Assembly: GCA_951406725.2 (NCBI GenBank)
Contig: OX597816.1
Location: 66,092,001-66,156,000, forward strand
Origin: Octopus vulgaris
Taxonomy: Eukaryota
Length of the DNA: 64,000 nucleotides
Direction of reading: 5' to 3'
In this document: positions 15,217 through 58,020 of the stretch, piece by piece
Position numbering within the stretch: the stretch's first letter is position 1
How the letters are laid out: each line of letters starts with the position of its first letter
Translations under genes and position numbers: made by a program
Notes under the pieces: model-generated
What the model was told of the DNA's origin: nothing
The model's input: the letters and a program-made list of their open reading frames with translations, nothing else
Database searches by the model: none

Positions 15217-15306
15217 TTGCTTTAGCTCATACCCAGAAACAGCTGGCCTGCCATTATGCAGTAATTTATACCGCCAACATCAGCGCAGTCTCTCTTCAGA
15301 TCACAG
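15217..15306 (+). CDS. Candidate host exon (coding phase 2->2, or 5'UTR if the acceptor at 15169 is used)
   Basis: Consensus donor CAG|GTAAGT at 15306/7; open frame CFSSYPETAGLPLCSNLYRQHQRSLSSDH joins 38312 in frame; acceptor ambiguous (15169, 15216 or 15225). Confidence 0.4.
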
Positions 15307-16029
15307 GTAAGTTGATTTCATTCTGGAATATGGTTTCTTGCATAGAATTTCCCACCATAAACATAATGTGGTTACTGCTGTTGTTGTTGTTATTATTAGA
15401 GCCAGTAGTAGTAGTAGTAATTATAGTAGTTGAAATATATTGGCTTTTTTTTTATGGCTCAAGGGAAAAAAAGAACAAATATATTGTGTAATCATTCTTC
15501 TTTAAAAACGTGTTATGGAAAAAAAAATCTTAGTTGATCCCTGGACCAAAACATAATGTAAACCCAAATTAGGCTTTATGGATTACCTTTATTAAACTAC
15601 TTAACCATTGGTATTACCTGGAAACTGTAGATGAGGCACACAGAGAATGGAAAGATGTTCAGAAACTGAATGTTTTTTTTTTTGTTTTTTTCATTTTGCT
15701 TCAGGCCTGTAAGAGAATGTGAACTTGTCACTGCAGGCTAAACCATACAATCGTTGTTCTTGTGTTCCACAGACACTCAGTGAACAGTTTTATGCAGTCA
15801 TTCTTTTATATAGTTTTTTTACAGTCATTCATTATGCAATGGCATACTGTCATTCGATCTACAGTGTTACATCTTCATTCATTAAACATGTTACGTGGTC
15901 ATTCATTACATGATGCTCTACAGACATTCGTTATATCGTGTTACATGGTTGTTCATGTTCGGCATCATGTTGTGGAACAGGGATACCAGTGCCTGGATTC
16001 TATAGCACATAAGAACCGTCAAGGAGGTC

Positions 16030-35020: not shown

Positions 35021-35042
35021 TATATGTATATATATATATAAC

Positions 35043-36128
35043 AACTGGAAAAGATACCTCGATGACTGTTTCATCATCTGGGACAAAGGCATAGAGAAAC
35101 TTGAGGAACTTAAAATTCTATTAAATGGAATAAATGACAATATACAATTCACGATGGACCACAACGAAAAAGAATTACCATTTTTAGACATCCTCATTAA
35201 GAAAACCGGCAACAAAATAGAGACAGATATCTACTATAAACCGACAGACTCTAAACAGTACCTACCCTTTGATTCATTCCACCCACGACACACTAGAATG
35301 AATGTCCCTTTTTGTTTAGCTAGAAGGATTTGCACCATAATATCAGACACAAACACCCGACACACACGTCTCCAGGAACTTAGAACCACACTCACAAATA
35401 GAAACTATCCACAGCCCCTAATAGACAGTGCAATCCAACGGGTACTTAAATTAAGTATAGAAGACCTGAGACAAACAAAACCAAAAAAGAAAGAACAATT
35501 AAAAACCCTTCCCTACATCTCTACACACAACCCACTCAACAATGAGGCCTTCAACACCATACTACAAAGCACAGCCCTACTAAAGGGAGACCCAAAGATG
35601 AACCGGATCCTCGAAACACACACCATCATTAAAAGTAAACGGCAACCAAAATCCTTGAAAAGGATTTTAACCCAAGCTACACTGCACTCAACATCAACCA
35701 CAAAACCAGCAGTTAGAAAATGTGGAAGGCCCAACTGCGGAATCTGTGTCATCTTGAAAGAAGGATCAGAATTTATACTGGAACAAGGCCACCAGTTCAC
35801 CATTAGAACAAACTTCACCTGCGCATCAGAAAACTTAATTTACATCATAACATGCGCAGGCTGCAATAGGCAGTATATAGGCCATACAAAAAATAGCTTA
35901 CGTAATAGGATGGCGGTGCATAAATCACAAATTAGAAACCCTGATTACCGCAAAATACCGGTCAGCGGACACATAGATAGATGTGCTGGAAATGTAAATC
36001 CGAAATTTACAACTAACCCACTCTATAAATTCAGTGACAACGCAACCTTCACACAACGCCAAAATAAAGAACTATATTTCATAAAAAAATTTAGACCAAG
36101 TTTAAACACCCTGGGCCAGGAATACTAA
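35043..36128 (+). CDS. PLE reverse transcriptase (C-terminal half) + GIY-YIG endonuclease, uninterrupted partial ORF
   Basis: NWKRYLDDCFIIW, LPFLD, YYKPT..YLPFDSFHP, CGRPNCGIC, CASENLIYIITC..C..QYIGHT..R...H..H; the frame is open upstream of the ORF-track ATG at 35154. Confidence 0.93.
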   Translation, partial: NWKRYLDDCFIIWDKGIEKLEELKILLNGINDNIQFTMDHNEKELPFLDILIKKTGNKIETDIYYKPTDSKQYLPFDSFHPRHTRMNVPFCLARRICTIISDTNTRHTRLQELRTTLTNRNYPQPLIDSAIQRVLKLSIEDLRQTKPKKKEQLKTLPYISTHNPLNNEAFNTILQSTALLKGDPKMNRILETHTIIKSKRQPKSLKRILTQATLHSTSTTKPAVRKCGRPNCGICVILKEGSEFILEQGHQFTIRTNFTCASENLIYIITCAGCNRQYIGHTKNSLRNRMAVHKSQIRNPDYRKIPVSGHIDRCAGNVNPKFTTNPLYKFSDNATFTQRQNKELYFIKKFRPSLNTLGQEY

Positions 36129-36294
36129 AACAAAAGATAAGTCCTCCGAAAAGGAGAACCAAATTTCACCACGGCCACTACTTCAAACAGACACTCACTC
36201 TGACGGAAATATGCCTTAGTAAAAAAGGAAAAATTCTTTCATACAAATCTGACCCTGATACATACGATACAGCTAAGGGTCAGACCCGATTCTG

Positions 36295-36690
36295 ATTGGT
36301 CAACAAGTTGATGACGTCTAGCTCTGCTAGAATGGACAGGATACAAACAGGGGACAGTCATTAGTCAGAATATTGATGACGTCCTTTTCTGCTTGAATAG
36401 TCACCTAACAAGTACAGACAGGGGGCAGATCTAATGTAGCTATAAGTCGTGATTGGGCAGAATCTGGATGACGTCCCGCTATGCTTGACTAACGAAGCGA
36501 CTGGTCAAGACAGGAAACAAACAAGAGGGAGTTATAATGCAGCAATTGGTCAAAATAATGATGACGTCCCGTTCCACTTGATTAAAGCCACCTAACGAAA
36601 CGATTGGTCAAAACATTGATGACGTCACGCTACGCTAGATTGACCACCTAACAGGCATTATAAAACTGAGCATTTCACAAAAACTCACTA
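36295..36690 (+). promoter_or_regulatory. Putative Pol II promoter in the PLE 3' region: 5x (ATTGG-N12-TGACGTC), TATA box, Inr
   Basis: Modules at 36295, 36360 (ATTAG), 36452, 36545, 36603; TATAAAA at 36659-65; CTCACT at 36684-89. Confidence 0.7.
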
Positions 36691-37004
36691 GAACCACCCA
36701 GCGAACTTCCACCATGGGTCATCACAATTGCTTAAGGTAAAAATGAATTCCTCGCTCTTTCGGAAACATCAATCTTCTGTATTGACCGCTTTCCACCACT
36801 TTGATCTGTTTTTTGTATTGAATACGTAACGCCACCGTGGGCCACTGCATCAAACACTTTGAACATATACTTCAAACTATATATCAACTATACATGAACT
36901 ATATATCAACTATACATGAACTCTAAGATGTCTGACTCCGTTGTGTATTATAAATGAATTTCTTGTGTTTGACGGCATGAGCTGTCTCTTTTTATATATA
37001 ACTT

Positions 37005-37045
37005 TTTTTGATAAGGTTCATTTCAGGAACTGAAACATGTTATAA
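37005..37045 (+). ncRNA. Decayed hammerhead of the PLE pLTR
   Basis: TTGATAA-GGTTC atttcag GAACT-GAAA-CATG-TT. Confidence 0.5.
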
Positions 37046-37103
37046 TGTATATATAAAAATTTAAAATTGTATAATACAGCAGCATTTTCGAACTTCATTT
37101 TTT

Positions 37104-37147
<44 letters not shown>

Positions 37148-37627
37148 TTGTGTTTTGAGTTGTATTTTCATGTTTGTATCACCAAACCTATTTACTCTGT
37201 AGTAACAATTTACATAGGAAGTTTTGTCATCATCAACACAAGTAAAGATTGATTTAAAACTTCTGAAACAATAACAACAACAACAGCAATCCATCCAAAC
37301 ACAATTCCTTTTCAAATAAAGATGCGATCATATGTTCCCAAATCAGTGAGATGGTTAACATTTTATGGTAAACGTTTTATTTCCAACATTTTCTATTTAG
37401 TCTACTCCAGTATACTAACAAAGACTTTTTCTCCTTCTTTGCATCTAATTTATTTTTCTCTTATTTATTCGTTATAGTCGTGGAAGAGAGAAAGGGGCCA
37501 TTAAACTTCAACATGGGTAAAGGGATCATCTATTTCTTAAATCAAATCTCACTTACTTACTTGTTCTTACACTATCTTCTATCAATGCTGTGGTACCACA
37601 CTCAGTTTGGCTTTGATTTTAATCTTT

Positions 37628-37998
37628 ACTACATCATATTTTAGCTATAGCTTCAACATCATTGCTATATCGTTGCTATATCATTGCTATATTGTTGCTA
37701 TATAACACCTCTGCACTGATGCAAGGAAACTATTCCTTGTCATTGCTTGTTATGACAACTTATACCCATGATTGCTATGACATCATCCCTCTACAGTACT
37801 GATGTAATAAAACAAACACTCATTACATCATATTGTAGCTAAACCTTCAAAATCATTGCTATGATACTGTATATTGTTGCTATATATCATTTCTGCACTG
37901 ACACTAGGAAAACATTCCATGCCATTGATTGTTATGACAGCCTGTACCTATCATTGGTATGACATCATCCCTCTGCATTTTTGAATTAATAAAACAAA
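37628..37998. repeat. Diverged tandem duplication, about 195-bp period
   Basis: TACATCATATT.TAGCTA..CTGCACTGA..TTGTTATGACA..TATGACATCATCCCTCT..TAATAAAACAAA occurs twice. Confidence 0.8.
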
Positions 37999-38311
37999 TG
38001 CCCTGTCATTAAAGAAGCCCCATTGTCTTAAGTCATTTACTATAACACTATACTGTAATATTATTTCCACAAAATACTACTTTGTTACTATCATATTTTA
38101 TCATTTGGTTACTAAAGCATTTTATTATTCCAATAACATTTTATTTGTTCTTTACAGTAGTGCTATGCACCATCATTGCTTAGATTAAATGTTGTTATTT
38201 TAGCATTTTGATTCTGCTTGAACACTTTATTCTGTTCAACTAATTAATTATTTTCATGGATTCCTGGATGAAATATATTAACTTGTGAATTTTTTTTATC
38301 GACTATTCCAG

Positions 38312-38431
38312 AACACAGACGTTACTGAGCAGAAAAGGAGAAGAATTTTGCACCAATACTAGTTCCCTAAATCATTTCAACATGACTAGCATCTCGAAAA
38401 CAATGAAATACATTGATATTGAAAAGAACAG
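38312..38431 (+). CDS. Host gene exon, 120 nt, phase 2->2, unknown product
   Basis: T-tract + TTCCAG acceptor; CAG|GTGAGT donor; open frame TQTLLSRKGEEFCTNTSSLNHFNMTSISKTMKYIDIEKN. Confidence 0.7.
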
Positions 38432-38787
38432 GTGAGTGATCTGTTAAATAATTTACACAAAGGACATCATCATCCTCATCATCATCATCATTGTCATCAT
38501 TATCATTATATCATCATCGTCGTCATCATCGTCATCATCATCATCATCATCAACAATGATTTTGACATCTGCTTTGAGGCAGAATATTACAGTCAGGTAC
38601 GCTTCCTGTCACTACCCCTTACTTGTTTCTTAGTAAGGTACTATTCTTCTCATTTTTCACATGAAAAATCATACACTGGCTGGATATCCTTTTTACAGCA
38701 GGTTTGGCCAGTAAAAGCAAAGATGTTGTTTCATATCAATTAAGGTACTAGACAGAAATTCAAGAAACTAACTATCCTTAATATCAA

Positions 38788-39156
38788 AAAAGGGTAAAAA
38801 TCATTAATGATTTATACCAAGTGGTCAGCGTGGAAATAAAACCTCATAGGTACATTTTATAAATAATTATAACAAGGGTTTGGCTTGTGCCTCACCACAC
38901 ACTGAAAAATAGACGTCAATAGACACTATTACCACCATCAGTTCTCCGTCGCTGATGAAGGCAATAGGTAATGTTTTTTTTTATTACTTTAAGCCTGAAA
39001 CACGATCATGTATGTGGTTAACCGAAGTTTTGGCTCATTTTCTTTCTTTTACTAGCCTTTTATGTAGTGTGTTTCTCTCAGAGAACTTATGGTGGTAATA
39101 GTGTCTCTTGACGTCTATTTTTCAGCGCGGGTGAGGCACAAGTTAAACCCTTATTA

Positions 39157-39162
<6 letters not shown>
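38788..39162. mobile_element. Fold-back HHR element (family H)
   Basis: Arms 38864-38946 / 39081-39162; tail 38788-38863; (TA)n on the right. Confidence 0.85.
38946..39017 (+). ncRNA. Type I hammerhead, partly decayed
   Basis: CCGTCG-CTGATGA-AGGC..GCCT-GAAA-CACGATCATG-TA-TGTGG. Confidence 0.7.
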
Positions 39163-39225
<63 letters not shown>

Positions 39226-39879
39226 ACACATACATTTATATATACATATATATGTATATAAATGTTTACGTATATATCTATATATCCAAATCAAACATCA
39301 AAAGTTGAACATTAACAACTAAACATTAAAAATAACAATAACAAAATGACAATGAGATGTACATATGGAATGTATTAGCTTGATGTTGTATATATATATA
39401 TATATCTGTAGAGAGAGGGAGAGAGACAGAAAGAGATTTGTATCATAAGATATGGAATCAGAGAATCATGTAGCTATCACAGAAAGCTCTAATGGACACT
39501 TGTCTAACAGTTCACATAGTAATCCAATACAAAAAAGTGTAATACAGAGTGTCCATGCAGTTGAAATCCAAAAGATCTAATTGATGAATTTATTTCATGA
39601 GGAGTATCATAAAAAATTAAGAGGTATAAGAGGTGAATATATTTATTTAACCTCTTAACATTCTCAGGATTATGACCATTTTGCAGCCTTCTTCATGTAG
39701 TAATAATTTCAACATGGAAAAAATTATACTTATAGGTTTGCATGCTTGGCATTATACAATAGAATTGTATAGTCACAAATCAATGCAAGTAAAGAAAGCT
39801 AGCTCATCAGATCACCAGAGCATATTACACCTATGATTCAACCCTAAGTAAACACACAAAATTGGTCTCTTTATTATGG

Positions 39880-40545
39880 AAGTATGCTGTGCGTGAGAAG
39901 ACCCGGCAAGACTAGTGAAGCCATAATCCGTGGCCCCTACCTGGGACGTAGTCAGTCCACCTGTGCATACCTTCCTTCTTGTGACACTTGTGAAGACCTG
40001 TTGAGGCAAGTGAGAATCGAATCGTATCGAATCAAATCGAACCAAATCAAAATAGATGAACATCAATGGAATTTGTATCCTTGTGGTAAATTAGTGCCGG
40101 TGGCACATAAGAAAACCATCCGAACGTGACCGTAGCCAGTACCGCAATGACTGGCCTCCGTGCTGAGGGCACGTAACAAACACCATCCGAGCGTGGCCGT
40201 CCGCCAGCCTCGTCTGGCACCTGTGTCGGTGACACATAAGAAAACACCATCCGAGCGTGGCCGTCTGCCAGCCTCGTCTGGCACCTGTGTCGGTGGCACA
40301 TAAAAAACACCATCCGAGCGTGGCCGTCTGCCAGCCTCGTCTGGCACCTGTGTCGGTGGCACATAAAATCACCCACTACACTCTCGGAGTGGTTGGCGTT
40401 AGGAAGGGCATCCAGCTGTAGAAACACTGCCACATCTGACTGACCTGGTGCAGCCTTCGGGCTTCCCAGACCCCAGTTGAACCGTCCAACCCATGCTAGC
40501 ATGGAAAGCGGACGTTAAACGATGATGATGATGATGATGATGATA
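39880..40545 (+). mobile_element. SINE-like family 3, long CpG-retaining copy with 63-64-bp tandem units
   Basis: Units at 40181, 40245, 40308; core GGCGTTAGGAAGGGCATCCAGC; (GAT)n tail; 5' part similar to 24960-25142. Confidence 0.85.
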
Positions 40546-40701
40546 TATATAATGTATGAAATACCAAGACAAGATAAAACTAGTTTGGTTTGGCCAGTAA
40601 AAGTAAAGATGTTGTTTCATATCAATTAAGGTGCTAGACAGAAAAAACAGGAACGGATGAAAAGACGAAGTAAAGTAGTTAAAGTAAATATAAAAAAAGA
40701 T

Positions 40702-40865
40702 GCAGCACGGAATTTTTTCAGCAAAGCGACGAAAATATTTTGACAAATTAAATTTAAATTTTGAAGTGAATCTAACGGATTTTGTGTGTTTCTTAAATGG
40801 CTTATAAACACCTTCCACACTGCAATTGTTTTTGTTCCAGCACACGATCTCAGATCAGGTCACTT
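40702..40865 (+). mobile_element. Single-arm copy of family C
   Basis: Matches 18331-18469 plus the reverse complement of tail 18150-18190; HHR core deleted. Confidence 0.8.
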
Positions 40866-40888
40866 AATAAAAATAAATAGCTTCAAAA

Positions 40889-40929
<41 letters not shown>

Positions 40930-41009
40930 AAGTATAGTATAAATGAATTAAATAGGAAACAGGTGGCTGGAGATAAAGAGTCATGGCAGATTCTGATGTC
41001 ACGCAACTG

Positions 41010-41200
41010 GTAACCATGCCAGTGGCATATAAAAGCACCCATTACACTCTCAGAGTGGTTGGTGTTAGGAAGGGGCATCCAGCCATAGAAACCATGCCAA
41101 ATTAGACTGGAGTCTGGTGCAGCCCCTTGGCTTACCAGCCCAGGTCAAACCATCCAACCCATGCCAGCATGGACAGTGGATGTTAAATGATGATGATGAT
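41010..41200 (+). mobile_element. SINE-like family 3
   Basis: Core motif and GAT tail. Confidence 0.8.
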
Positions 41201-42021
41201 GAAGCTGTGTCTGTTTGTTAAAGGCAAACTTCACTGAGAGGGTGAATAGAAGAGAGAGTATAAGTATGATCATGATGGGGATGACAGAGCTAAAAGGAAC
41301 AAGAGGATGCTGGGAGAGGGAGTAGTACAAGAGCAACAGTGATAAACAGACATTTTGATGAAACAAGATGAGTCTAAGTAAAAGACACATCTAACATATC
41401 TGAGCTAATTCCCAAAGCAGTAAAGTATTTTTGCCAGTCTTCATAAAAGTATGCTGATTTCCTCTCCTTTTTTGTGTCACTCTTAGACAAGAAACCATTA
41501 TACACCTACAGCCTGTGTTACACATTTTCTATACACAAATCACTTAATGATATTGATACCCAAATATTTGTACGTACCCTTTCGTACAAAAGTATTTATA
41601 TATCTTGCACTTTACTACCAACACTTTTCCCTGTTTAGTTATTATGTAATTATGTTGTATGAGCTACTGTTTTATATAACAGCTGAACTGTTCTTTTTAT
41701 ATCACTAATAATTATTCCACCATTTAGACAGACTAATGTCTAGAGACTACAGATGGAAAAATGTTGAAAGAAACTTTTGTATATATGTAAATATAATTAC
41801 TGCATTAATTGACTTTTCTACACAACCACACAACATTTATTTTCTATACATTTGATTGTTTCTTGTTGTATGTGTATATGTGTATACACATAGTATGTGT
41901 ACATAAATGTATATGTATCTCTGTGTGTGAATGTAATTTTCATATATGTATATATATGCACATACATATATATATGCACATACATATATATACATAGATA
42001 TATATTTATGTGTGTGTCTGT

Positions 42022-42337
42022 GTGAAGGCACATAGCTCAGTGGCTAGAGCACCGGGCTCACAATCATGAGGTAGTGAGTTTGATTCCCTGACCAGGCCAT
42101 GTGTTGTGTTCTTGAGCAAGACACTTTATTTCATGTTACTGGGCTGCGATGTCACTGGTACCAAGCTGTATTAGTCTTTGCCTTTCCCTTGGATAACGCC
42201 AGTAGCAGGGAGTGGGGAAGCTGGTATGCATGGGTGACTGCTGGTCTGCCATAAACAGCCTTGCCCGAACTTGTACCTTGGAGAGGAACTTTCTAGGTGC
42301 AATCCTATGGTCGTTCATGACCAAAAGGGGGTTTTCA

Positions 42338-42340
<3 letters not shown>
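42022..42340 (+). mobile_element. SINE family 4
   Basis: TAGCTCAGTGGCTAGAGC..GAGTTTGATTCC..CTTGAGCAAGACACT. Confidence 0.8.
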
Positions 42341-42389
<49 letters not shown>

Positions 42390-42495
42390 TATATATATAT
42401 ATATATATACACACACACATATATGTGTGTGTGTGTGTGAGTGTGTATGTGTGTGCTTGTGTGTGTGTGTATAAATTCACATCACATACACACAC

Positions 42496-42535
<40 letters not shown>

Positions 42536-42538
<3 letters not shown>

Positions 42539-43365
42539 AAGGGTACAGTGAATATATTGTCGTCTGAATTACACAAAAATGAAAATAACACTGACATCTC
42601 ATTTTAACAGATATATTTACCAAAATTACATAAAAATATCTTGAAATACTAAAGAGTAAATTTATTCAATAAAATCACCATTGGCTTCAACCACAGCCTC
42701 CAGACGACTTTGGAATCTCCTGCAACTCTTCTGGATGGTCTCCTTGTTTAAGTTGGTGAATGCTGCCATAATTATTGCCTTCAGTTCCTCTTTGGTGTTA
42801 CTAGAAGTTTTGTTAGTCTCTCACTCAAATGCGCCCCACACATAATAATCAAAGGGGGTGCAGTCTGGGGAGTTGGATGGGCAGATGTTAGGGGTGACAG
42901 AGATTGTCTGACAACCACGACTGGGTTCCCCTGTTTGTGTGGTATGGTGCAGAGTCCTGTTGCCATATATAGGGTCTTCCAGCAGTCACCCTCTTGATCC
43001 AGGGCAGCACTACCTCCTCCAGGCACTTGGTGTAGACCTCCATGTTGAGTTAGAGGCTGTGTGGGAAGATGAATGGAGGCATAACGTCGCCACCACTGGT
43101 GATCACTCCAAACACCATGATGTTGACTGGATGTTTGATTTTTATCACTCTCGATACATGTTTTGGGGACACAGCAAGCCAATGGTTGTTGTGTGTTCAC
43201 CATCTGATCCTGGCAGAAATTTTTCTTGTCTGAGAAAAACCAAAGCATGTTCGGTTGGAGGGGATGCTTCAGTTTGTTTAAAGGCTTTATAGTGCAGCCT
43301 TTCCTCTTGTCCTTGATGGCTTGGGATACAAATTGGTCCTTTCTCATCTTGTCTTCATGCACTCC
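42536..43365 (-). pseudogene. maT/Bmmar1-like (DD37D) transposon, 3' half
   Basis: WFFSDKKNF, MVFGVITSGG, WQQDSAPYH, PSNSPDCTPFDYYVWG, RLEAVVEANGDFIE*; frameshifts. Confidence 0.88.
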
Positions 43366-43689
43366 CTGCATGATAAGTAATTCAAATTTAATGTCTTCTT
43401 GAAACAACAAATTTATTAAGAGATTAGGATTTAAATTCCAATCTATGAAAAGTTTTTGCTCTACAATATTCTCAAAGGAACGAAAAACTATCCAGCAACT
43501 CAGGCTAATACGAACGAACCTGGTAGGTGTAAAAGACTAACTGTCGCCTTTACTCACCAAGAGTACAGGCGACAGTCAGATCGCTGATGTCTGTTGTGCA
43601 CTCTGCTGTTGTTATTTAATTGCTGTTATTGTGAGCATCTGTGTGTAAAGATCAGTTGTGTTTTGCAGGGTGCTTTATTTTTACACTCA

Positions 43690-43825
43690 ATTTAGAAATG
43701 GAGAAAGACAGTGCTAGATATAAAAAAAAAGTCATTTGGAGCTAGAAATGAAGTGGAAAATCATGAAACTCTTTGAGCAGGAATGTGTCTTATGTGAAAT
43801 CTGTGATCAGTCTGAGTGATGCTGA
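43690..43825 (+). pseudogene. Possible Tigger/pogo N-terminal HTH remnant
   Basis: MEKDSARYKKKV..LEMKWKIMKLFEQ. Confidence 0.35.
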
Positions 43826-43827
43826 TG

Positions 43828-43963
43828 ATTCGGCAAAAGAGACTGACAGAATAAGTACTAGGCTTACAAATAATAAGTCCTGGTGTCGATTTGTTCAACT
43901 AAAGGTGGGTCTCCAGCATGGCTACAGTCAAATGACTGAAACAAGTAAAAGAGAGTAAAGAGT
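43828..43963 (+). mobile_element. SINE family 1, 3' tail
   Basis: TTCGGCAAAAGAGAC..GACTGAAACAAGTAAAAG. Confidence 0.8.
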
Positions 43964-44597
43964 AATCCAGGCATGAAGTAAACATTTTTGGGGATTTTGT
44001 TGTCTGCACAGAGAGTAGTATTGTGTTTTTGGCTTTTATCAATTTTGGTATTTAAAACCTTAAGATGCTTTGAATTAATTAGAAATATAAATGCAGCCCT
44101 GATGATACACTATACTTATGATGAGTGTAATTTTAACCACAACCATGAAAATAATGTGGTTGGTGTGTTGTGATGCAAAACACACAAAGCAGGTGATATT
44201 AAACACTTCGATGCTGAGCAGATGTTGGCCATGTGTATATTATTACAGTATGTTAATGATAATATACAATAATTATGAGGTGTATACTGATCTCACTAAG
44301 CTAGTCAGTTGAGTGTAAGAGATATAAGTATAAGAGCCAGTGTAAATATTTATAAGAGCAACACACCTTTATTTATGGTTGTTGTTGCTTCAGTACTTAG
44401 GAGGTTATGTGTTTTGATCTATAAAATTAGTATTATTACTGTAATTCATTGTGTTTTTATTATTCATTTAGGGTTCATTTGGGCCTCTACAAGTGATACA
44501 ATATTCTAGATTATATATATATATATTGCCAGTAAATCATAAAATCCAAGAAAGAAGCACACTCTAAGTTACAGAGCAGTAGAGTAAATAGACAAAG

Positions 44598-44642
<45 letters not shown>

Positions 44643-44679
44643 CACACACATATATATATGAATATATATATGTATACAG

Positions 44680-44920
44680 CATGTGTAAAAAAATTCGAGC
44701 AAGGTCGTTGCCAGTACCGCCTCACTGGCCCCTGTGCCGGTGGCACGTAAAAGCACCCACTACACTCTCGGAGGGGTTGGCGTTAGGAAGTGCATCCAGC
44801 TGTAGAAACTCTACCAGATCAAGATTGAAGCCTGGTGCAGCCATCTGGTTCACCAGCCCACAGTCAAACCGTCCAACCCATGCTAGCATGGAAAGCGGAC
44901 GTTAAACGATGATGATGATG
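44680..44920 (+). mobile_element. SINE-like family 3
   Basis: Core motif and GAT tail. Confidence 0.85.
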
Positions 44921-44959
44921 ATATGTAGATATATCTATATATGTGTATATGTATGTGAC

Positions 44960-45147
44960 CGTGTGTGTATCGTTGGCAGTCTTCTTTCTCCATCTTCCCT
45001 TCTTTGGACTTTTTCTATATTTCTGATGAAGAGCTCTGCTCAATATGTGAAACCCTCCTTCTTTCTTTCCTTTCCTGAGCAGCCAATAACACTGTACTTA
45101 TTCCATGTCCTTGCGTTGTTGTGTTTTCTCTTTGTTCATGTTTGGAT

Positions 45148-45152
<5 letters not shown>
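44960..45152 (+). mobile_element. PLE-type 3' fragment with decayed HHR
   Basis: CTGATGA-A-GAGC tct GCTC followed by a decayed GAAAC; ends at (TA)n. Confidence 0.5.
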
Positions 45153-45201
<49 letters not shown>

Positions 45202-45329
45202 TGACTGAAGCAGTATTAATACCAAAAGACAACGTGTGTGTGTATTATATGCTTGTGTATATGCAAATACAAATGCATATATATCTATATGTATATAGAT
45301 ATATATACTCACACACACACATACAAATA

Positions 45330-45368
<39 letters not shown>

Positions 45369-45879
45369 CACACATATGTTGATGTATTATGCACATATAT
45401 GTGACCATTTTCCTAGTTTTTAGATGTATACCCTGAGATTTTTCAGTTGAAACACCTATTTACATTTAAAGACATGTCTTTGCAATACATGTTTAGCAAG
45501 ACAGCTTATTATAAAGTTACCAGGTATAAGTGGCTGAATCTATTTTAGATGCTCAAAGGGGGTGCAATATTTGCCAGGTGCAAATAGGTGAGTCTATTTA
45601 AGATACTGTAACTTGAATTAATGTATTCTTGTACATTCTGTTTACCCCTTAATCCCATCTATGTTTACCATAGATGTGCTAACACTGGTTTCTTAGCTTA
45701 TAAGTTAACCAAGAAATAACAGTAGCATTTGGCAGCTGCAATGATTTACTAGTAAGAACTTCTCTTTGAATCACATTCTTGCAGCTGGCTTGCACATTTT
45801 CATTTCTTGTTACTTATTGCATTTTTTTTTTTACAAAAACAAAGCCCCTTATGGAATCCAAACAGAAGTAACTAACATA

Positions 45880-46502
45880 TCTTGCTAGCTAAATGCTATG
45901 CTAAAATGCATGGCAAAAGAACTACTGCCAGCCATTTCAGACCACCACCAGTTGAAAATACCATTTAAGTATGGCAAAAGAGCAAAGAAAAACAACTAAA
46001 ACTTTAGGCTGAACAAAATGCAATTTACAAAGAGGAATTGGTAAATGGTCACACTTAGAAGAAAAACAGAATGTTTGCAGAGTTAACAAGGAAATTTCTC
46101 TGATTCTAGAACAATAGAAATTCTTGTATCAACAACAATGATTATTGTTGAAGCAAAGAATATTACATGCTAATTAAAAATAACAGATTTTTAAAGGTAT
46201 GTCATTGGGGTGTTAAAGATTTATGAAAAGATACAACTTATGATTGTTCGTGGTTACTTGCAAGAACTGGAACTTCTCATAAAACGCTCATAACTCATAA
46301 AGATGAAATACTGGAATTTTACAAACTTATAAAGATTAGGATTAAAAAGCAGGAAATGTGGATGAAGTTTGTCTCATTTTTTATTTCTTTTCAAACAAAA
46401 CCATTGATTTTAGAAGGTTCAAAACTATAGCAATCAAAACAACAGAACATAAAAAAAACCATTATACCATCCTTCTAGTTTGTACAACTGAAGGTAAAAT
46501 TA
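45880..46502 (+). pseudogene. pogo-family transposase remnant
   Basis: GKRTTASHFRPPP, WC*RFMKRYNL, GNVDEVCLIF..NKTID..IKTTEHKKNHYTILLVCTTEGK. Confidence 0.75.
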
Positions 46503-46564
46503 TAATGACAATGATGATGATGATGATAATAATAATAATAATAATAATACACACATGTACACGT

Positions 46565-46609
<45 letters not shown>

Positions 46610-46610
46610 C

Positions 46611-46664
<54 letters not shown>

Positions 46665-46667
<3 letters not shown>

Positions 46668-47066
46668 CATATAAATAAAGTGTACATTTAAACACATAAG
46701 AGATGGCCATAATAGGACATCTGACCTGCTAGAAGGAGTAGTTAAAATTCAAACCACTATTAGGGATAAATTCGAAAGGGAATGAAAAATAAAAACATTT
46801 ACCATTTATTTCCTGTACCATGGTTTCAAGCTATCTTCAGCAAATAAAATATTTTTCATTCCCTTTCGAAATTACCCCTAATAGGGGTTTGGAATTTAAC
46901 TACTTCTTCTAGCGGATCAGATGTCCTATTATGGCCATCCCTTATGTGTTTAAATGTACACTGTATTTATATGTATAATATATAGTCTATTGACTAGTTT
47001 TCTTCTCGCTAGACCACTGGTGGCAAAAAAATTCTAAATAAATTTTTTTGCTACCCTTAATTTTAT

Positions 47067-47070
<4 letters not shown>
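46665..47070. mobile_element. Fold-back HHR element (family I)
   Basis: Arms 46665-46790 / 46850-46976; tail 46977-47070 with a terminal hairpin and CCCTTA; (TA)n on both sides. Confidence 0.85.
46812..46844 (-). ncRNA. Minimal hammerhead (almost no stem II)
   Basis: TTTG-CTGAAGA-TAGCTT-GAAA-CCATGG-TA-CAGG. Confidence 0.65.
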
Positions 47071-47110
<40 letters not shown>

Positions 47111-47112
<2 letters not shown>

Positions 47113-47320
47113 GGTTGGTCAGTAGTTCATATATCTGAAAAATAAGCACACTAAAACATTAGAACACTAGTATACTTAGAAGGTTGTTTGTTATGGCTGG
47201 TTTGAGAGTAACCATTGGTTTTATACCTATAAAGTGTTTAGCCATTTATAGCTAAACACTTTATAGGTGCAAAACCAATAGATACTCTTTAACTGACCAT
47301 AACAAACAACCTTTTCTAAA
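47111..47320. mobile_element. Fold-back element in (TA)n (family J)
   Basis: Diverged arms 47178-47242 / 47251-47313 plus a left tail. Confidence 0.7.
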
Positions 47321-47323
47321 TAT

Positions 47324-47355
<32 letters not shown>

Positions 47356-47378
47356 GCCAAACGTTAAATGATGATGAT

Positions 47379-47421
<43 letters not shown>

Positions 47422-47939
47422 TTATGAACATATTTAACTATAATTTTTATAATCATGTATTCTTTCTTGACCCTATTGATTTCAGATTGGGTGTGTAATG
47501 TCTATTGCTTCTTATATCATATAAGTAAAGAGAAATATTTAATCAAAAGAAATCAATACTTCCTATACCTGAATGAAATTATCTCTTTTGAACACTGCAT
47601 TTATGCCACCTTTAACTTAAATATGTACAAAGCCATATATATAGCTTCAGCAAAAATTTTTCTTTTGTTATCACAAGCTGTCACTTAGACTAGGTTAGAA
47701 ATATATTATAAGATAAATATATAACAATACATATTTCAATCAATATTTTTAATTTTTTTTACCCTTGTTTTCCAATATTTTCAATCATATTTCTTTAGAT
47801 CTTGTATTGTTAATGCATCTGTAAGTCTTTCTATTGATATGCTAATCTCATGGAGAAAATATTTTTTGATGGCAGTCTTAAACATTGGTATGAATAACAG
47901 TTCATCATCATCATCATCATCATCACCACCACCACCACA

Positions 47940-47970
<31 letters not shown>

Positions 47971-48545
47971 TCATCCTTGGCACCTTCTACATCTGTTTTT
48001 CCATACTTACACTGGTTGGCTGAGTCTTCTCCAGTAAAGTATCTCTTCTTTCAAGTGGTCTTTTGTCATCTCTTTTGTGAGATGCAACAACCTTAGATCA
48101 CCTTCCACCATTTCTACTCATTCCTTCCTCATATTCTTTCTCTTCCACAGGCTCTCCGCCCCCTGGATTACTTGACACTTCTCTAACGTCCATTCTTCAT
48201 ATGCAACATATGTCTAAATCAAAGCCATTTTCTCTCTTTGACCCTTACATCTGATTCATCTCAAGCCTATTTTTCCCCTCAGTTTGCCTGTACTCCATGA
48301 TTTATTCAAGCTAACATTATACATCCAGAGGAACATGCTGGCCTCTTTCCTGTCCAGCCTTTACACCATTTCATGTCTAGTACCCATGCTTTACTACCAT
48401 CCAGTGATATATACTTCATATGCAAGCCTCAAACCACATTGAGAAAGAATGTGTTTATTATTAACAGAAGCTTCTTGAACTTTTTCCACCTCATTCTTAC
48501 TCAGGCTTCAATGCTTTCAGAATATTCATTTCTGCTGTTAATTAA

Positions 48546-48765
48546 CCCTTTAGCATTTAGATTACTTTCTCAAATGCAATGCTTGTTTATTCATATTGCT
48601 TGAAATTAATCTTGCATTATCTCGTAGCTTTGAGATTTTAGTGTTGTGATTGTTTACTTTTAGAATTACATTGTAAGGTGGGTGTGAGAGGCTGGGTGTG
48701 GCCAGTTTGAACATAAAACAGGTAGAATATTTTGGCTGGATATGGTCAGTTTGAATGCTAAAGAG
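48546..48765. mobile_element. piggyBac-type MITE
   Basis: TTAA|CCCTTTAGCATT...AATGCTAAAGAG|TTAA; partial copy at about 24828. Confidence 0.75.
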
Positions 48766-49714
48766 TTAAGTCACCTAAATATCCGAAATTATCAACTACT
48801 TCTTTTGGGTTACCAAATAAATTGTTTTCATTTTGTTTATTCAACTTGACACTCCATCATCTTGTCTGAAACGAGGTGAAATTTATTCGAATTTCAAAAA
48901 TGATAAGCAAAAGTTGTAAAGGAAGAATTCAGCTACCAAAAAAACATAAAACACTACAATAATTTTTTTTTATATTAATTCACCTAATATCAGAGAAGAT
49001 TAAAATAAATGGGAAAAAAAATGAATTTTCCTGAAAAACCCAATTGCATTCTTACTGGGTATTTGAAAGAATTTTGTTTTAAGAATGCCTTTACAACTAA
49101 TTACTCTTATACATCTGCTACACATAAAATGTCCTTTTTTGGATTTTTTCCATTAGCCTGTCTGTTATCTCACTGTATTTCTTACGCAATCATTGCTTAG
49201 ATTTTGTGGGTAAACAATTATACTAGAAAATGTCATTCCAAATTAAGATTGAAAAGGAAACTATATTTCAATTTCATTATATAATCAAAATGTTAATAAA
49301 TAATTGGCAGTTCTAAACTAAGAATCAACTGTTGATTTTTTGATGTGATACCAAAACTGGAATATAATGAACTCTTTTGTTACCATATTTCTGTTCAAAT
49401 ACTCTGCTTTTGTTTCAGTTAAGTGTTTTAGAGAAAAGCTTGAAGTATAGCTGTAAATAGAATTGATAAATACATATACCCACATACATATTTTATAAAA
49501 TACTTGGATTGTCGAATCTTGATAATTTAACCCATTTGTTACCATATTTTGTAGAAATACATTGCCTTTATTTCAATTTGAAAATAATATAATAATGAAA
49601 AAATAATAATGATAATGAAATTATTGTATACAGTGATCAGGTGCACTACAACTCATAAGAAAAAGTAACCAAAACTGTATGAACGGTACACAGAATATGC
49701 CAAGGAAGTGGGCA

Positions 49715-50010
49715 GACTTTCGGAAACATTTTTTCACACTAAGAGTTGCTGAAGCATGGAACAAACTGCCGGCATCAGTTGTTAGTTGTCGGAGCACTGC
49801 ATCCTTCAAAACTTCCATGCTTCCTGAGATTCGTCAACACTACACCTGATTTTCTCCCCCCCCCCCTACACATGCAAGCATGTATCTGACTCATACACTG
49901 TTCACTTCCCAGACATTTGTACATTACTGCATATACTTTATATGCACTTTTGACAAGTTGTGGTACACCTGAACACTGTATACAGTAATTTCATTATTGT
50001 TATTATTATT
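49715..50010 (+). mobile_element. CR1-type LINE 3' end; an opposite-strand tail fragment lies at 49612-49652
   Basis: RKHFFTLRVAEAWNKLPASVV; 3'UTR; (ATT)n. Confidence 0.85.
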
Positions 50011-50190
50011 ATTTTAAGTCAGAAAAATGCAAGAATTTTGTAAATAATTTTGTCATAATTAAGCTGGTGTTTAGAACATAGATTAACATGAGATTTTACT
50101 GGAAGGCTATATTTTGATTACTTTAAATTAGTAAGTTTAGACCATAGAATCAGAAGTGGTTTCAGGTAGGCTGGTATCCAAAGAAGGTTG

Positions 50191-50424
50191 AAGGCAGCGA
50201 GCTGGCAGACACGTTAGCATGCCGGGCGAAATGCATAGCAGTATTTCGTCTGCTGTTACGTTCTGAGTTCAAATTCCACCAAGGTCGACTTGGCCTTTCT
50301 TCCTTTCAGGGTCGATTAAATAAGTAGCAGTTATGCACTGGGGTCGATATAATCGACTTAATCTGTTTGTCTGTCCTTGTTTGTCCTCTCTGTGTTTAGC
50401 CCCTTGTGGGCAGTAAAGAAATAG
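50191..50424 (+). mobile_element. SINE family 2, full length
   Basis: Head, Meta-like domain and tail; flanking direct repeat GGTATCCAAAGAAGG. Confidence 0.9.
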
Positions 50425-50486
50425 GTATCCAAAGAAGGAATATTTTTCTAATGCTTTTTATCTGTGATATTTTCTTCTTCTTCTAG

Positions 50487-50706
50487 TGCCAAAGACAGCT
50501 TGGACAGATGTCGAAACAGGAGAGCTTTGATTGATGATGATCTCCAGTATTTATATAATGATCTTCACAAATACAAGAAACGTTTCCAAAGAGCTTACCA
50601 TGATCAATTCTGCAATGACTATATGGAAACTAAAAATATGAAAGGTGTTGTTGACCTCCAAATCTATCCTCGTGGAGTTCGGACAGCACATTTCCCATTA
50701 TACACG
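50487..50706 (+). CDS. Host gene exon, 220 nt, phase 2->0, unknown product
   Basis: Strong pyrimidine tract TTTTCTTCTTCTTCTAG; 73 open codons AKDSLDRCRNRRALIDDDLQYLYNDLHKYKKRF..YPRGVRTAHFPLYT; donor ACG|GTAATG. Confidence 0.8.
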
Positions 50707-52688: not shown

Positions 52689-55005
52689 CAGTGATTCCCA
52701 AGGTGGGGCGTACGCCCCACTGGTGGGGCCTGAGAAAATTCAGGTGGGGCGCGGGGCATAGACGTGGGCTGTGAAAATATTTGTACATGACGAGCGGTCA
52801 TCGTGGGCACAACCTTAGATTCCGTCTTTCCTTTGAAGCCTCCACATCGGAAACTCTCGCACCCCAGCGAGACAAAGAAGATCCCGCACTGAGCAATAAA
52901 CTTACTATTCAGATAAGCCAATCAATTGCCTCAATTAGTTTGCCTCAATTAGTCTTTGGAGTTTTTGAAGTTTGGATTCATTCCTGATGAGCATGATGAG
53001 CGTAAACCGTTTTGCTTATTATGTAATCAGACGATGAGCAATGAGTCAATGAAGGCAGGTAGGCTGGAAGCGCACTTAAAGGTAAGACATCCTAATAATT
53101 CTAATTTAGATTTGGAATACTTCAAATCATTGAAAGAAAAATTTAAAAACTGAACAAAACTCACTTCACTATTTCATGCAAAACAAGTGCCTCATACTCG
53201 TGCCCTTGAAGCCAGCTACGAAATCTCCTTGCTTATAGCAAAACATGGAAATAATCACACTATTGGAGAGCAACTGGTTAAACCTGCTATCTCAATATTC
53301 TTAAAGACTGTATTACAAAAAGATGATGGAGATATCAGGACTATGCCACTCAGTAATAACACTGTCTCGAACAGAATAGATGAAATGGGGCAAGATGTTG
53401 AAAGCCAGCTCATTGAGAAATTAAAATTGCGTAAGTTTTCATTACAAATGGACGAATCCACAATCCGGGACAGTGAGGCTCTGTTATTGACTTATGTGAG
53501 GTATATTGACCACGAGGAGTTTCAGGAAGAGATGCTGTTCTGCGAATCGTTTGAAACCACCACAACTGCAAATGATATTTACATCAAAATCAAACATTAT
53601 TTGGATGCAAACAAAATACCAAAGGAAAACTTACTGGCATGTGCGGCAGACGGTGCACCTGCCATGATGGGCAAGAATACGGGATGCTTAAAAATGATGA
53701 AGGATGAAAATCCAAACATGTTGACTGTCCATTGTGTAATACACCGAGAAAACTTGGTTGCCAAGAAATTGTCCCCTGTTCTTAACAAGATTCTTCAAAG
53801 TGTGATCAAGTGTGTCAACAGCATTAAAAGAAATTCTAAATCTGAACGTCTTTTTAAGCAGTTTTGTATAATTCAAAGTGCCGAACATGTTCGATTATTG
53901 CTTCATACAGAAGTAAGATGGCTATCAAGTGGAAACTGCTTAAAGAGGTTCATGGAATTATTTGATCAGATTAACGACTTTCTTAGTGATAAATGTGAAA
54001 TGAAATTGCTGTCAACAACGGATGGAAAAGCATTTGTCAGTTATTTGACAGACATATTTGAGAAACTTGGAAACTTGAATAAACAACTTCAAGGTGCAAA
54101 CATGACACTTATTGATGCAAAAGCAAAGATTTTTGGATTTATTACAGCTCTCGAATTATGGAAAAAGAAATTTTCCAAAAGAAATTTCAGTGAACTTTAC
54201 TGGTTGAGTAAATGTGAATTAACAAATGATGCTGGCATTGTAATTATTGATCATTTAAATATCTTGATAAAGGATTTCAATGACAGATTTTGCGACTTAA
54301 AGGCAATGAATTTTCCTTCTTGGTTAACTCAACCGCTTCTGATTAACGTTTCTGATGCTACAATCCAATACCAAGAAGAGTTATCAGAATTACAACATGA
54401 TGAATCAGTGAAGACTTTGTTTAAATTGAAAGGTACAAAGATGTGGCTATATGACGAGGTTGAAAGAAAATATCCTAAAATTTCTACATCAGCGAGAGAG
54501 CTACTGATTCCTTTCCCTTCGTCTTATTTGGTCGAATGTGGTTTTAGTGCAGTTGATAATTTGCTCGAAGCCAAGAGAAACCGGCTTGAGATTACAAAAT
54601 GTGGCGATTTACGACTGAAATTAACAAAGTTGTCTCCTCAAATTAAAAACTTGTGCTGTATGCATCAGGCACAGGGTTCTCACTAAATTAGTCGAGCTGA
54701 CCGTCAAATAATTGAACTGAAAAAACGTGTTTCTTTATTCTTTATAAATTGACATTTTTTAAAAACATGAGAAATCGTAATAATTTTATCGATTTATTGG
54801 GTGTTATGCACTTTCAGTGCCTGTTGTTTCAATTCTCAAACTATTTTTTTGTATTTTGAATACAATTTTTTAATTTTTGATTTTTTTTCAATTGTAAGTA
54901 GGCCCACATGTACTTGTAAATGTGAGTGGACATGGGAAAAGGTGGGGCGTAAAAACTTTTGCTATGAAAAAGTGGGGCGCCGGGAAAAAAGGTTGGGAAA
55001 CACTG
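52689..55005 (+). mobile_element. hAT transposon, Buster/Charlie group, full length (2317 bp)
   Basis: TIRs CAGTGATTCCCAA / TTGGGAAACACTG; 8-bp TSD TTCTAGAG at 52681-88 and 55006-13; subterminal GTGGGGCG repeats at both ends. Confidence 0.96.
52956..54686 (+). pseudogene. Buster/Charlie (ZBED5/ZBED8/SCAND3-like) transposase with one in-frame TGA and a damaged start
   Basis: BED finger CLLC..HLKVRH; FSLQMDES, ADGAPAM, CVIH, VRWLS, SYLVECGFS, C-terminal QGSH; TGA at 53151-53 in frame. Confidence 0.92.
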
Positions 55006-57009: not shown

Positions 57010-58020
57010 TAGTAGTTTTATTTTTATAGCGTGCTTTCACTTCACTACCGAGCGCAGCTCTGTGTGCCTTGGGTATGTGCTGTGGTTTGTTGAGATGTTC
57101 TTATGGTTACTGTATTGAAAATGTTTTGCGTAGGATGTGTGCAGTGTCCAGTATATATATTTGTAAGTCCTGGTGTTTTTGTTATGTATTTGTCTGAATA
57201 TTTTTTTATCATATCTAATGCACCTACTATGATAGGAATTGTTTCTGTTTTTAGATTCCACATTCGAGTTACCTCTATTTCCAGGTCTTTGTATTTTGAA
57301 AGTTTTTCCATTTCTTTTAGGGAAACGTTGTCATCTGCTGGTATTGATACATCAATTAGAAAGCATTTTTTTCTTCATGATCTCTGACAACTATATCTGG
57401 CCTATTGGCCTTAATTTCTCTATTTGTGTTTATAGGCATATCCCAAAGTATGGTTGCTTTCTCGTTTTCTGTGACCTTTTCTGGTGTGTGCCTATACCAT
57501 CTTTTTTCTGTTGTTATTCCATAGTGCTGGCATAGCTTCCAGTGTCTGTGAATATAGTCCTTCTTAGCCAGGATTGGGTTGCCAGAGATAATATGATTTA
57601 TTGTTTCTTGTCCATCTCCACATATTCTGCAGTTAATTGTTATGTTTCTTTTCATTATATGTTTTTGGTAATTTCTGGTGGGGAGGCTTTGGTCTTGTGC
57701 TGCAATTAAAAATCCTTCCATCTCTGCTTTGAGTCCTGAGCTTCTCAACCATTGCTGGGATTTTTCTCTGTCTATTTCTTTTGCATTTAGTTTAGTCCAG
57801 TATTTGCCATGAAGGGGCTTTTCTTGCCATCGTTTTATCATGGTCCATTGCTGTTCTAGTTTTAGTTTGGTTTTCCGTTGTTTTATAGCTTTTGTTGTTT
57901 CTTCTTCTTCTCCATATTTGTTAGGTAGTTTGATTTCTTGTTTGTATTTGTCAGCTTCCTTAAATACTGAGAACAGTTTTTTGTTTTGCGGCTATTTGTA
58001 TCAGTTTTCCTTGCTTCTGA
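57010..58020 (-). mobile_element. 5'-truncated R4/Dong-clade RLE non-LTR retrotransposon in (TAA)n
   Basis: WQEKPLHGKY, AAQDQSLPTRNY, CRICGDGQETINHIISG, RH, RPDIVV..IDVSIP, KLSKY; (TAA)n on both sides. Confidence 0.93.

What the first reader, a model, noticed from the sequence alone, without database searches (positions are those of the whole stretch)
36684..38431. PLE promoter with Kozak ATG and splice donor is in frame with the next host exon
Seen: CCACCATGG at 36709-17 opens ATG GGT CAT CAC AAT TGC TTA AG|GTAAAA (donor at 36737, phase 2; unspliced it stops at once). The exon at 38312 starts in phase 2 on the same strand. Splicing gives MGHHNCL-R-TQTLLSRKGEEF.. and continues in frame into 50487-50706. 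Established: PLEs retain introns near their 5' ends. Inference: a TE-supplied alternative first exon for the host gene. A phase match has a 1-in-3 chance expectation.
Basis: inference. Interest (0 to 1): 0.7.

Follow-up and report, generated by a model that had tools for sequence, protein, structure and literature searches.

The report
Retrotransposon end donating first exons
This is the tail end of a young octopus jumping gene whose built-in splice signal is joined to neighbouring host DNA at four other places in RNA assemblies, but the proposed join into this particular gene was not seen and its in-frame fit is likely chance; the element's family also likely makes its enzyme by a retrovirus-style ribosomal frameshift.

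Summary
The sequence features are as described. They are not special to this locus. They form the 3' pseudo-LTR of a 5'-truncated Penelope-like element (35031-~37114), and the ATG-donor 33-mer occurs 347 times exactly in the genome. The junction 36736^38312 was seen in 0 of 6 RNA-like runs laid. In 4 of 4 runs laid on exon 38312, it is joined to a native exon ending at 15306. No contig carries this copy's eight near-private alleles. The host protein (126 aa, identical to O. sinensis LOC115209620) starts at 38382, so a fusion would add 31 residues. The mechanism is supported elsewhere: 4 of 4 loose contig ends at the donor map to canonical acceptors 2.5-14.7 kb downstream of other copies. Two of these open glycosyltransferase genes, and no in-frame fusion was found. 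The proposed internal acceptor 37026 lies in a hammerhead-like motif. Side finding: full-length copies have two ORFs overlapping in -1 register at TTTTTTA (5 of 6 families), and 59 of 68 distant ORF1 relatives keep a terminal Phe-Leu, which likely marks programmed frameshifting.

The parts
15274..15306 (+). 3' end of the native upstream host exon (exon A; its 5' end not fixed; likely 5' UTR), donor GTAAGT at 15307
   Evidence: Loose ends before 38309 in 4 of 4 runs match here. Its only ATG opens a 2-codon frame.
35031..36128 (+). 5'-truncated ORF2 of a Penelope-like element: end of RT, CX4CxxC linker, GIY-YIG endonuclease; 5' border in (TA)n
   Evidence: Alignment to other copies starts at 35031; PF01541 E 2e-07; linker motif
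36294..36642 (+). Five 41-nt repeats, each with an ATTGG-type box (reverse CCAAT; one copy degenerate) and TGACGTC (CRE-like): predicted promoter/enhancer array of the pseudo-LTR
   Evidence: Repeat family D1; motif positions. Factor names are from own knowledge; function untested.
36659..36690 (+). TATA box (36659-36665) and initiator-like TCACTA (36685-36690): predicted transcription start near 36687
   Evidence: Sequence; start site inferred, since contigs cannot show it
36709..36742 (+). Kozak ATG (36714), 23-nt mini-exon coding part and phase-2 splice donor (GT at 36737)
   Evidence: 347 exact genomic copies; donor-side loose ends in RNA-like contigs map to acceptors at 4 other loci
37008..37041 (+).
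   Evidence: Motif search; same architecture with other stems in related families; described for PLE ends in PMC4209133; no Rfam hammerhead hit; cleavage untested
37108..37146 (+). (TA)n tract at the 3' border; element homology ends near 37114
   Evidence: Copies end in (TA)n at this point or about 35 nt later
38312..38431 (+). Host exon B: 70 nt before the start codon, host ATG at 38382; acceptor used in RNA
   Evidence: Joined to exon A and exon C in 4 of 4 runs; start matches P0001-P0003
50487..50706 (+). Host exon C (coding); the last coding exon lies outside the window at G000:C3:66159470
   Evidence: Loose ends behind 38431; B+C+D translation equals P0003 letter for letter

Best explanation
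The stretch is the 3' pseudo-LTR of a young, 5'-truncated Penelope-like retrotransposon lying in sense in a 23-kb intron upstream of the start codon of a small octopod gene; its donor is joined to host acceptors at four other loci in RNA-like contigs, but here only the native exon joints are seen, so a TE-started isoform of this gene is likely absent or minor and the in-frame fit is likely chance. Shown: element borders, family size, native exon chain, host start codon, and donor-to-acceptor joins elsewhere (as contig loose ends). Inferred: the CCAAT/CRE/TATA array starts transcription near 36687. In a full element this leader serves the downstream copy. At a 3' end no element body follows, so the donor takes the next strong host acceptor and the ATG usually gives a short upstream ORF (8, 8, 10 and 38 codons at the four loci). 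If this copy did fire, it would be predicted to give a 157-aa protein with 31 extra N-terminal residues.
For: Borders and 98-99% identity to other copies. 347 exact cassettes. Native A-B-C joints in 4 of 4 runs and no joint from 36736. No exon-B-like loose end at the donor among the 18 loose ends (4 runs). Eight near-private alleles read as the family allele at full depth wherever covered (table 3). Host start 38382 and 126-aa orthologues. No longer relative among 129-2000-aa proteins (weak). Four donor loose ends each map behind a pyrimidine tract plus YAG, with a same-strand copy 2.5, 4.1, 7.6 and 14.7 kb upstream; chance about 4e-10 for 1098 copies. Precedent: PMC2377424 discussion.
Against: Only 6 of 20 runs holding exon C were laid, all as contigs that drop rare forms, and 3 loose-end rows were not shown. 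Whether those animals carry the insertion is unknown. The acceptor at 38312 is real and only 1,575 nt from an intact donor, closer than any of the four supported cases, so the splice is mechanistically easy. The per-copy chance of an open in-frame fit is only about 0.065. The element side of the four loose-ended contigs is not locus-specific. The runs are labelled 'RNA?' (a guess); the exon joints across 23-kb and 12-kb introns argue that they are spliced RNA.
Confidence: 0.72

Rival explanations
1. One reading: in animals that carry this insertion, the pseudo-LTR is a working alternative first exon, spliced to 38312, giving a measurable isoform with 31 extra N-terminal residues.
For: Intact promoter array, ATG and donor; verified acceptor 1,575 nt away; the same donor joined to host acceptors at 4 other loci, one from a 99.5%-identical copy; open frame into the host start.
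Against: 0 of 6 runs show it and the copy's own alleles are unseen. An unused acceptor at 38158 scores higher in a crude matrix (7.2 vs 5.4) and would give a 17-codon ORF. No 157-aa member among the 4 members of the orthologue cluster. No in-frame fusion was found at the 4 supported loci (at two of them no host ORF was identified).
Confidence: 0.25
2. The ATG mini-exon is the element's own start for RT-endonuclease: it is spliced over ORF1 to the TTTTTTAG acceptor just before ORF2, and host fusions are by-products.
For: The AG is phase 2 and in frame with ORF2 in 10 of 10 long copies. All 5 families with an intact overlap read TTTTTTA+G. ATG plus phase-2 GTAA donors also occur in the 3' ends of two other families.
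Against: No such joint in 4 runs; X12 and X6 contigs cross the site unspliced. Weak acceptor score. In distant ORF1 relatives the motif is fixed in ORF1 frame, and 17 of 59 have a next residue whose codon cannot start with G. This fits a slippery site better than an acceptor.
Confidence: 0.15
3. The donor is inert in this family and the loose ends are genomic rearrangement or assembly junctions, not splicing.
For: The runs are only guessed to be RNA; the evidence is loose ends, not joints laid on each locus.
Against: All four break at the same donor base and resume behind a pyrimidine tract plus YAG, kilobases downstream of a same-strand copy, and the genome is not joined there.
Confidence: 0.05

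Closest known systems
Penelope of Drosophila virilis (PMC2377424; abstract, discussion and passages read; HHR passage in PMC4209133)
   Same: Promoter, start site and splice donor lie in the pseudo-LTR. The authors state that the 3' pLTR can drive downstream genes or exons. A hammerhead variant lies next to the intron end.
   Different: Penelope's promoter is internal and TATA-less, with a 75-bp intron and one ORF. Here there is an upstream CCAAT/CRE/TATA array, a leader ATG, no internal splice seen, and two ORFs. Host-directed splicing is supported here by RNA-like contigs at four loci.
Neptune/Nematis-type EN+ PLEs (PMC8557442; passages, Fig. 1 legend and one supplement search)
   Same: [quoted passage not shown]
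   Different: The abstract calls canonical EN+ PLEs single-ORF. Here a 466-aa ORF1 overlaps ORF2 in -1 register. The Fig. 1 legend mentions an ORF1 separated by a frameshift with pseudoknot, but the figure is not held, so I could not see for which clade (recalled: Athena). Clade not tested by phylogeny.
Chlamys-3_cRei (PMC8557442, passage read)
   Same: Start site in the pLTR, and a 5' UTR intron whose donor is in the pLTR; alternative acceptors.
   Different: N-terminal EN, algal host; splicing shown within the element by Iso-Seq, not into host genes.
TE-derived alternative first exons, as known for LTR/ERV and L1 promoters (search listings; otherwise own knowledge)
   Same: A repeat supplies promoter and donor and splices to a host exon.
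   Different: Here the donor comes from a PLE pseudo-LTR in a cephalopod; no such case appeared in searches.
Gag-Pol -1 frameshift at U UUU UUA (retroviral type; recalled, no call)
   Same: Identical heptamer in ORF1 register inside a -1 overlap; ORF2 often lacks its own early Met.
   Different: No strong downstream hairpin predicted (0 to -10.5 kcal/mol over 70 nt); ORF1 has no Pfam match.

Membership tests
EN+ Penelope-like element | RT followed by C-terminal GIY-YIG endonuclease | tested here: met
   PF01541 above cut-off; PF00078 E 1.1e-06 at 28.9 bits, just under the 29.6 cut-off; YLDD, DKG and GLKF motifs
EN+ Penelope-like element | Pseudo-LTR from partial tandem or inverted copies | tested here: met
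   The 3' end recurs directly before ORF1 in L031, L037, L038, L044 and inverted in L033, L034, L046, L047
EN+ Penelope-like element | Minimal hammerhead motif in the pLTR | tested here: met
   U3/A8 core with palindromic stem III at 37008-37041, also in related families; pattern match only, no Rfam hit, cleavage untested
EN+ Penelope-like element | Spliceosomal intron within the element's own 5' leader | tested here: inconclusive
   Donor joined to outside acceptors; no joint to any internal acceptor (contigs only)
EN+ Penelope-like element | Single ORF (as stated for canonical EN+ PLEs) | tested here: not met
   Separate ORF1 overlapping ORF2 in -1 register in 16 of 20 loci, 5 of 6 families; filed as a variant
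Neptune/Nematis clade | [quoted passage not shown] | tested here: met
   CX4CxxC at ORF2 residue 631; CxxC between the GIY and YIG parts with two later His
Neptune/Nematis clade | RT phylogenetic placement | not tested
   No named reference PLE sequences were fetched
TE-derived alternative first exon of this host gene | Junction from the TE donor to host exon 38312 in RNA | tested here: not met
   0 of 6 runs; contigs cannot prove absence
TE-derived alternative first exon of this host gene | Transcription start inside this copy | not testable with these tools
   Contigs cannot show starts; the copy's alleles were not seen
TE-derived first exon at other loci of the family | Donor joined to a canonical acceptor downstream of a same-strand copy | tested here: met
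   4 of 4 donor loose ends
-1 programmed ribosomal frameshift | X XXY YYZ heptamer in ORF1 register within a -1 overlap | tested here: met
   TTTTTTA in 16 of 20 loci; 8 of 10 long copies of the window's family
-1 programmed ribosomal frameshift | Downstream stimulatory structure | tested here: inconclusive
   Weak or no hairpin by ViennaRNA; pseudoknots not modelled
-1 programmed ribosomal frameshift | Frameshift product shown | not testable with these tools
   Needs a reporter assay or ribosome profiling

The most novel reading that the evidence does not exclude
A widespread, so far unnoticed lineage of endonuclease-bearing Penelope-like elements has a Gag-Pol-like design: an ORF1 of no known family joined to RT-endonuclease by a -1 ribosomal frameshift at U UUU UUA. 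In octopus, its pseudo-LTR acts as a portable promoter-plus-first-exon, present in hundreds of intact copies, that already starts transcripts of host glycosyltransferase genes and could N-terminally extend the gene at this locus.
Probability: 0.4. Interest if true: 0.7.

Novelty: new variant of a known kind. Interest (0 to 1): 0.5.

Why it matters
That Penelope ends can drive host exons was proposed in 2008 (PMC2377424). Here, RNA-like contigs support it at four loci, with 347 intact cassettes that could do the same, which makes TE-driven first exons in the octopus genome directly countable. The ORF1/-1 heptamer design would change the single-ORF picture of EN+ PLEs and gives a simple reporter test. 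The specific claim for this gene matters little unless the junction is found in insertion carriers.

Tried and rejected
No RNA holder was on record as RNA (runs are guesses), so I relied on exon joints. Intronic parts without contig cover say nothing. Internal acceptor 37026/37027: no joint, poor score, inside the hammerhead-like motif. Mini-exon spliced to ORF2: not seen, kept as a minor rival. Loose end behind 36936 in X9: not at a donor, not followed up. Joint 4614^4714 on L038 has non-splice ends. Host protein function: no Pfam family at cut-off, no usable Atlas hit (the GidA hits scored under 0.9 and were dropped), and no paper names the orthologue IDs. The first homologue search missed the 126-aa proteins because of its length window. 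The host gene as part of the upstream RIM-like gene was rejected, because that gene's last C2-type exons end near C3:66080200. Rfam gave only (TA)n-driven and sub-threshold hits. DNA of distant ORF1 relatives was not obtained: the metagenome scan found none. The control (0 cassettes in 357,500 bp) left out the four stretches that held the upstream copies, so it is descriptive only. Earlier scan notes: nothing returned.

Full report
Observation. The Kozak ATG (36714), the 23-nt mini-exon, the donor after 36736, the stop after 8 codons when unspliced, and the open frame through 38312-38431 and 50487-50706 are all present. The window is G000:C3:66092001-66156000 in a 2.8-Gb genome. The host protein is identical to a named Octopus sinensis protein, so I call the animal an octopus.

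What the stretch is. 36130-37100 matches 40 scored places (41 matches) of 1098 candidates, the full-length ones at 98-100%. Against 29 other copies the element runs from 35031 to about 37114 and sits in (TA)n. It differs from the column majority at 15 of 2080 positions, two of them at the border. It is a 5'-truncated Penelope-like element: GIY-YIG, weak RVT_1 in a full copy, and a CX4CxxC linker of the type given for Neptune and Nematis (PMC8557442, passages). In long copies the same 3' end also precedes ORF1, directly or inverted, so it is a pseudo-LTR. It holds five 41-nt repeats with CCAAT-type and CRE-type motifs, a TATA box and an initiator-like site, the ATG and donor, and a minimal hammerhead-like motif at 37008-37041. 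That motif fits the U3-A8 variant with palindromic helix III in PMC4209133 (passages); Rfam did not find it. The exact 33-nt ATG-donor cassette occurs 347 times.

The host gene. In 4 of 4 runs from 4 studies, contigs join exon 38312-38431 upstream to an exon ending at 15306 and downstream to 50487. Exons B, C and a last exon at C3:66159470 translate from 38382 to a 126-aa protein identical to O. sinensis LOC115209620, with 126-aa relatives in O. bimaculoides and Argonauta. Its function is unknown. Phase plus 23 stop-free codons has a shuffle chance of about 0.065. That is unremarkable among hundreds of copies (inference; I have no gene annotation to count copies in introns).

Test of the junction. 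Of 20 runs holding exon C, 6 were laid. (X12, X6, X1, X9 on 36130-38600) lists no joints; 3 loose-end rows were not shown. (X12, X6, X5, X13 on the 5' half of full-length copy L038) lists all 18 loose ends, and none at the donor reads into exon B. At eight sites where this copy differs from 28-29 of 29 other copies, every covering contig carries the family base. So this copy is not represented in those contigs. It may be silent, minor, or absent from those animals. Contigs show presence only, so this lowers but does not refute the claim. In its favour, the acceptor is real and only 1,575 nt from an intact donor.

The donor works elsewhere. Four loose ends lie at the donor (one also). Each maps in the genome directly behind a pyrimidine tract and YAG, and each has a same-strand family copy with its donor upstream: C24 12833535 to 12831005 (2.5 kb), C4 69559231 to 69563320 (4.1 kb), C7 4470031 to 4462475 (7.6 kb), and C16 20628828 to 20614131 (14.7 kb). 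Chance is about 4e-10 for 1098 copies. The C7 exon holds the start of a core-2/I-branching enzyme gene (PF02485, E 8e-18). The C16 tag fits five paralogues of a nucleotide-diphospho-sugar transferase cluster (PF03407, E 8e-07 on paralogue L071). The paralogue nearest the copy has a changed first ATG and a frameshift, so the real target among them is open. In all four cases the element's ATG gives a short ORF (38, 8, 8 and 10 codons); no host ORF was identified at C4 and C24. PMC2377424 (abstract, discussion, passages) predicted this ability for Penelope's 3' pLTR. Searches listed no cephalopod or PLE case with RNA evidence; subscription papers are not searched.

Mechanism. Shown: anatomy, native joints, donor joins elsewhere. 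Inferred: the array initiates near 36687; in a tandem or full element the leader serves the downstream copy; at a 3' end the donor has no element body behind it and takes a host acceptor; the ATG mostly acts as an upstream ORF. No splice within the element was seen, and X12 and X6 contigs cross the leader and the ORF1/ORF2 border unspliced.

Side finding. Full copies have a 466-aa ORF1 and a 764-aa ORF2. I first read the AG before ORF2 as the mini-exon's acceptor (in frame in 10 of 10 long copies); RNA did not show it. ORF1 has 519 relatives at E <= 0.001; 12 tested have no Pfam match; a related cluster has a Pinctada member. Of the 150 listed, the 68 of at least 340 aa were examined. 59 carry Phe-Leu in the last 45 residues (shuffle mean 6.4, maximum 14 of 2000; Leu-Phe 5; upstream control window 4). 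The preceding residue is never one whose codon cannot end in U (0 of 59, against 21% of tail residues), at a median pairwise identity of 29%. In this genome, 16 of 20 loci from 5 of 6 families (ORF2 55-72% identical between families) have a -1 overlap with TTTTTTA in ORF1 register. One locus of those five families and all three of the sixth family show no overlap. In 3 of the 5 families the first ORF2 Met is 67-190 codons in. This likely marks a programmed -1 frameshift. Against it: no strong downstream hairpin; all five octopus heptamers are followed by G and so also read as acceptors; and ATG plus phase-2 donors occur in two other families' ends. The codons of the distant relatives were not seen. 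On novelty, PMC6431247 (passage) describes PLEs as single-ORF with EN or two-ORF without EN. The Fig. 1 legend of PMC8557442 mentions an ORF1 with frameshift and pseudoknot for a clade I could not see; its one held supplement notes upstream ORF1s only for Chara Chlamys in the rows shown. A killifish Neptune has two non-overlapping ORFs (10.1101/2025.05.22.655539, passages). Searches found no description of this frameshift, but unseen figures and supplements may hold one.

Verdict. Interest 0.5, carried by the family-wide donor use and the frameshift lead rather than by this gene.

Noticed in passing
L031:2620-6281, L192-L211 (full-length family copies in G000): Two-ORF EN+ Penelope-like elements with a -1 overlap at TTTTTTA in 5 of 6 families; 59 of 68 long ORF1 relatives end in a Phe-Leu motif; likely programmed frameshift.
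   Followed up: partly
G000:C7:4470031 to 4462475; C16:20628828 to 20614131; C4:69559231 to 69563320; C24:12833535 to 12831005: Four loci where the family donor is joined to a downstream acceptor in RNA-like contigs; two lead into glycosyltransferase genes.
   Followed up: partly
L070-L074 (G000:C16:20.54-20.82 Mb): Cluster of at least five nucleotide-diphospho-sugar transferase paralogues; L070 has an in-frame stop and L073 a frameshift.
   Followed up: no
L205, L206, L203, L200 3' ends: Other PLE families also carry an ATG with a phase-2 GTAA donor in their pseudo-LTR, in two cases inside the hammerhead-like stem III.
   Followed up: partly
window 38312-50706 and L060:3470: Host gene encodes a conserved 126-aa octopod protein of unknown function; contig depth was very high in two of four runs, a poor measure of expression. 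The frame upstream of its start is open for about 64 codons without an ATG.
   Followed up: partly
L057:2847-8200 (G000:C3:66074847-66080200): Last exons of a RIM/unc-10-like C2 domain gene upstream on the same strand (name recalled from the sequence; no Pfam hit on the one exon tested).
   Followed up: no
window 53154-54686 +: 510-aa open frame resembling a hAT-type transposase (recalled; no Pfam hit at E 0.1) in the intron after exon C.
   Followed up: no
window 42781-43536 -, 57045-57991 -: Fragments of a mariner-like transposase (recalled) and of a non-LTR element with weak zf-RVT match.
   Followed up: no
window 36936 (run X9): Contig leaves the element at a non-donor position into unrelated sequence, probably another copy's break point.
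   Followed up: no
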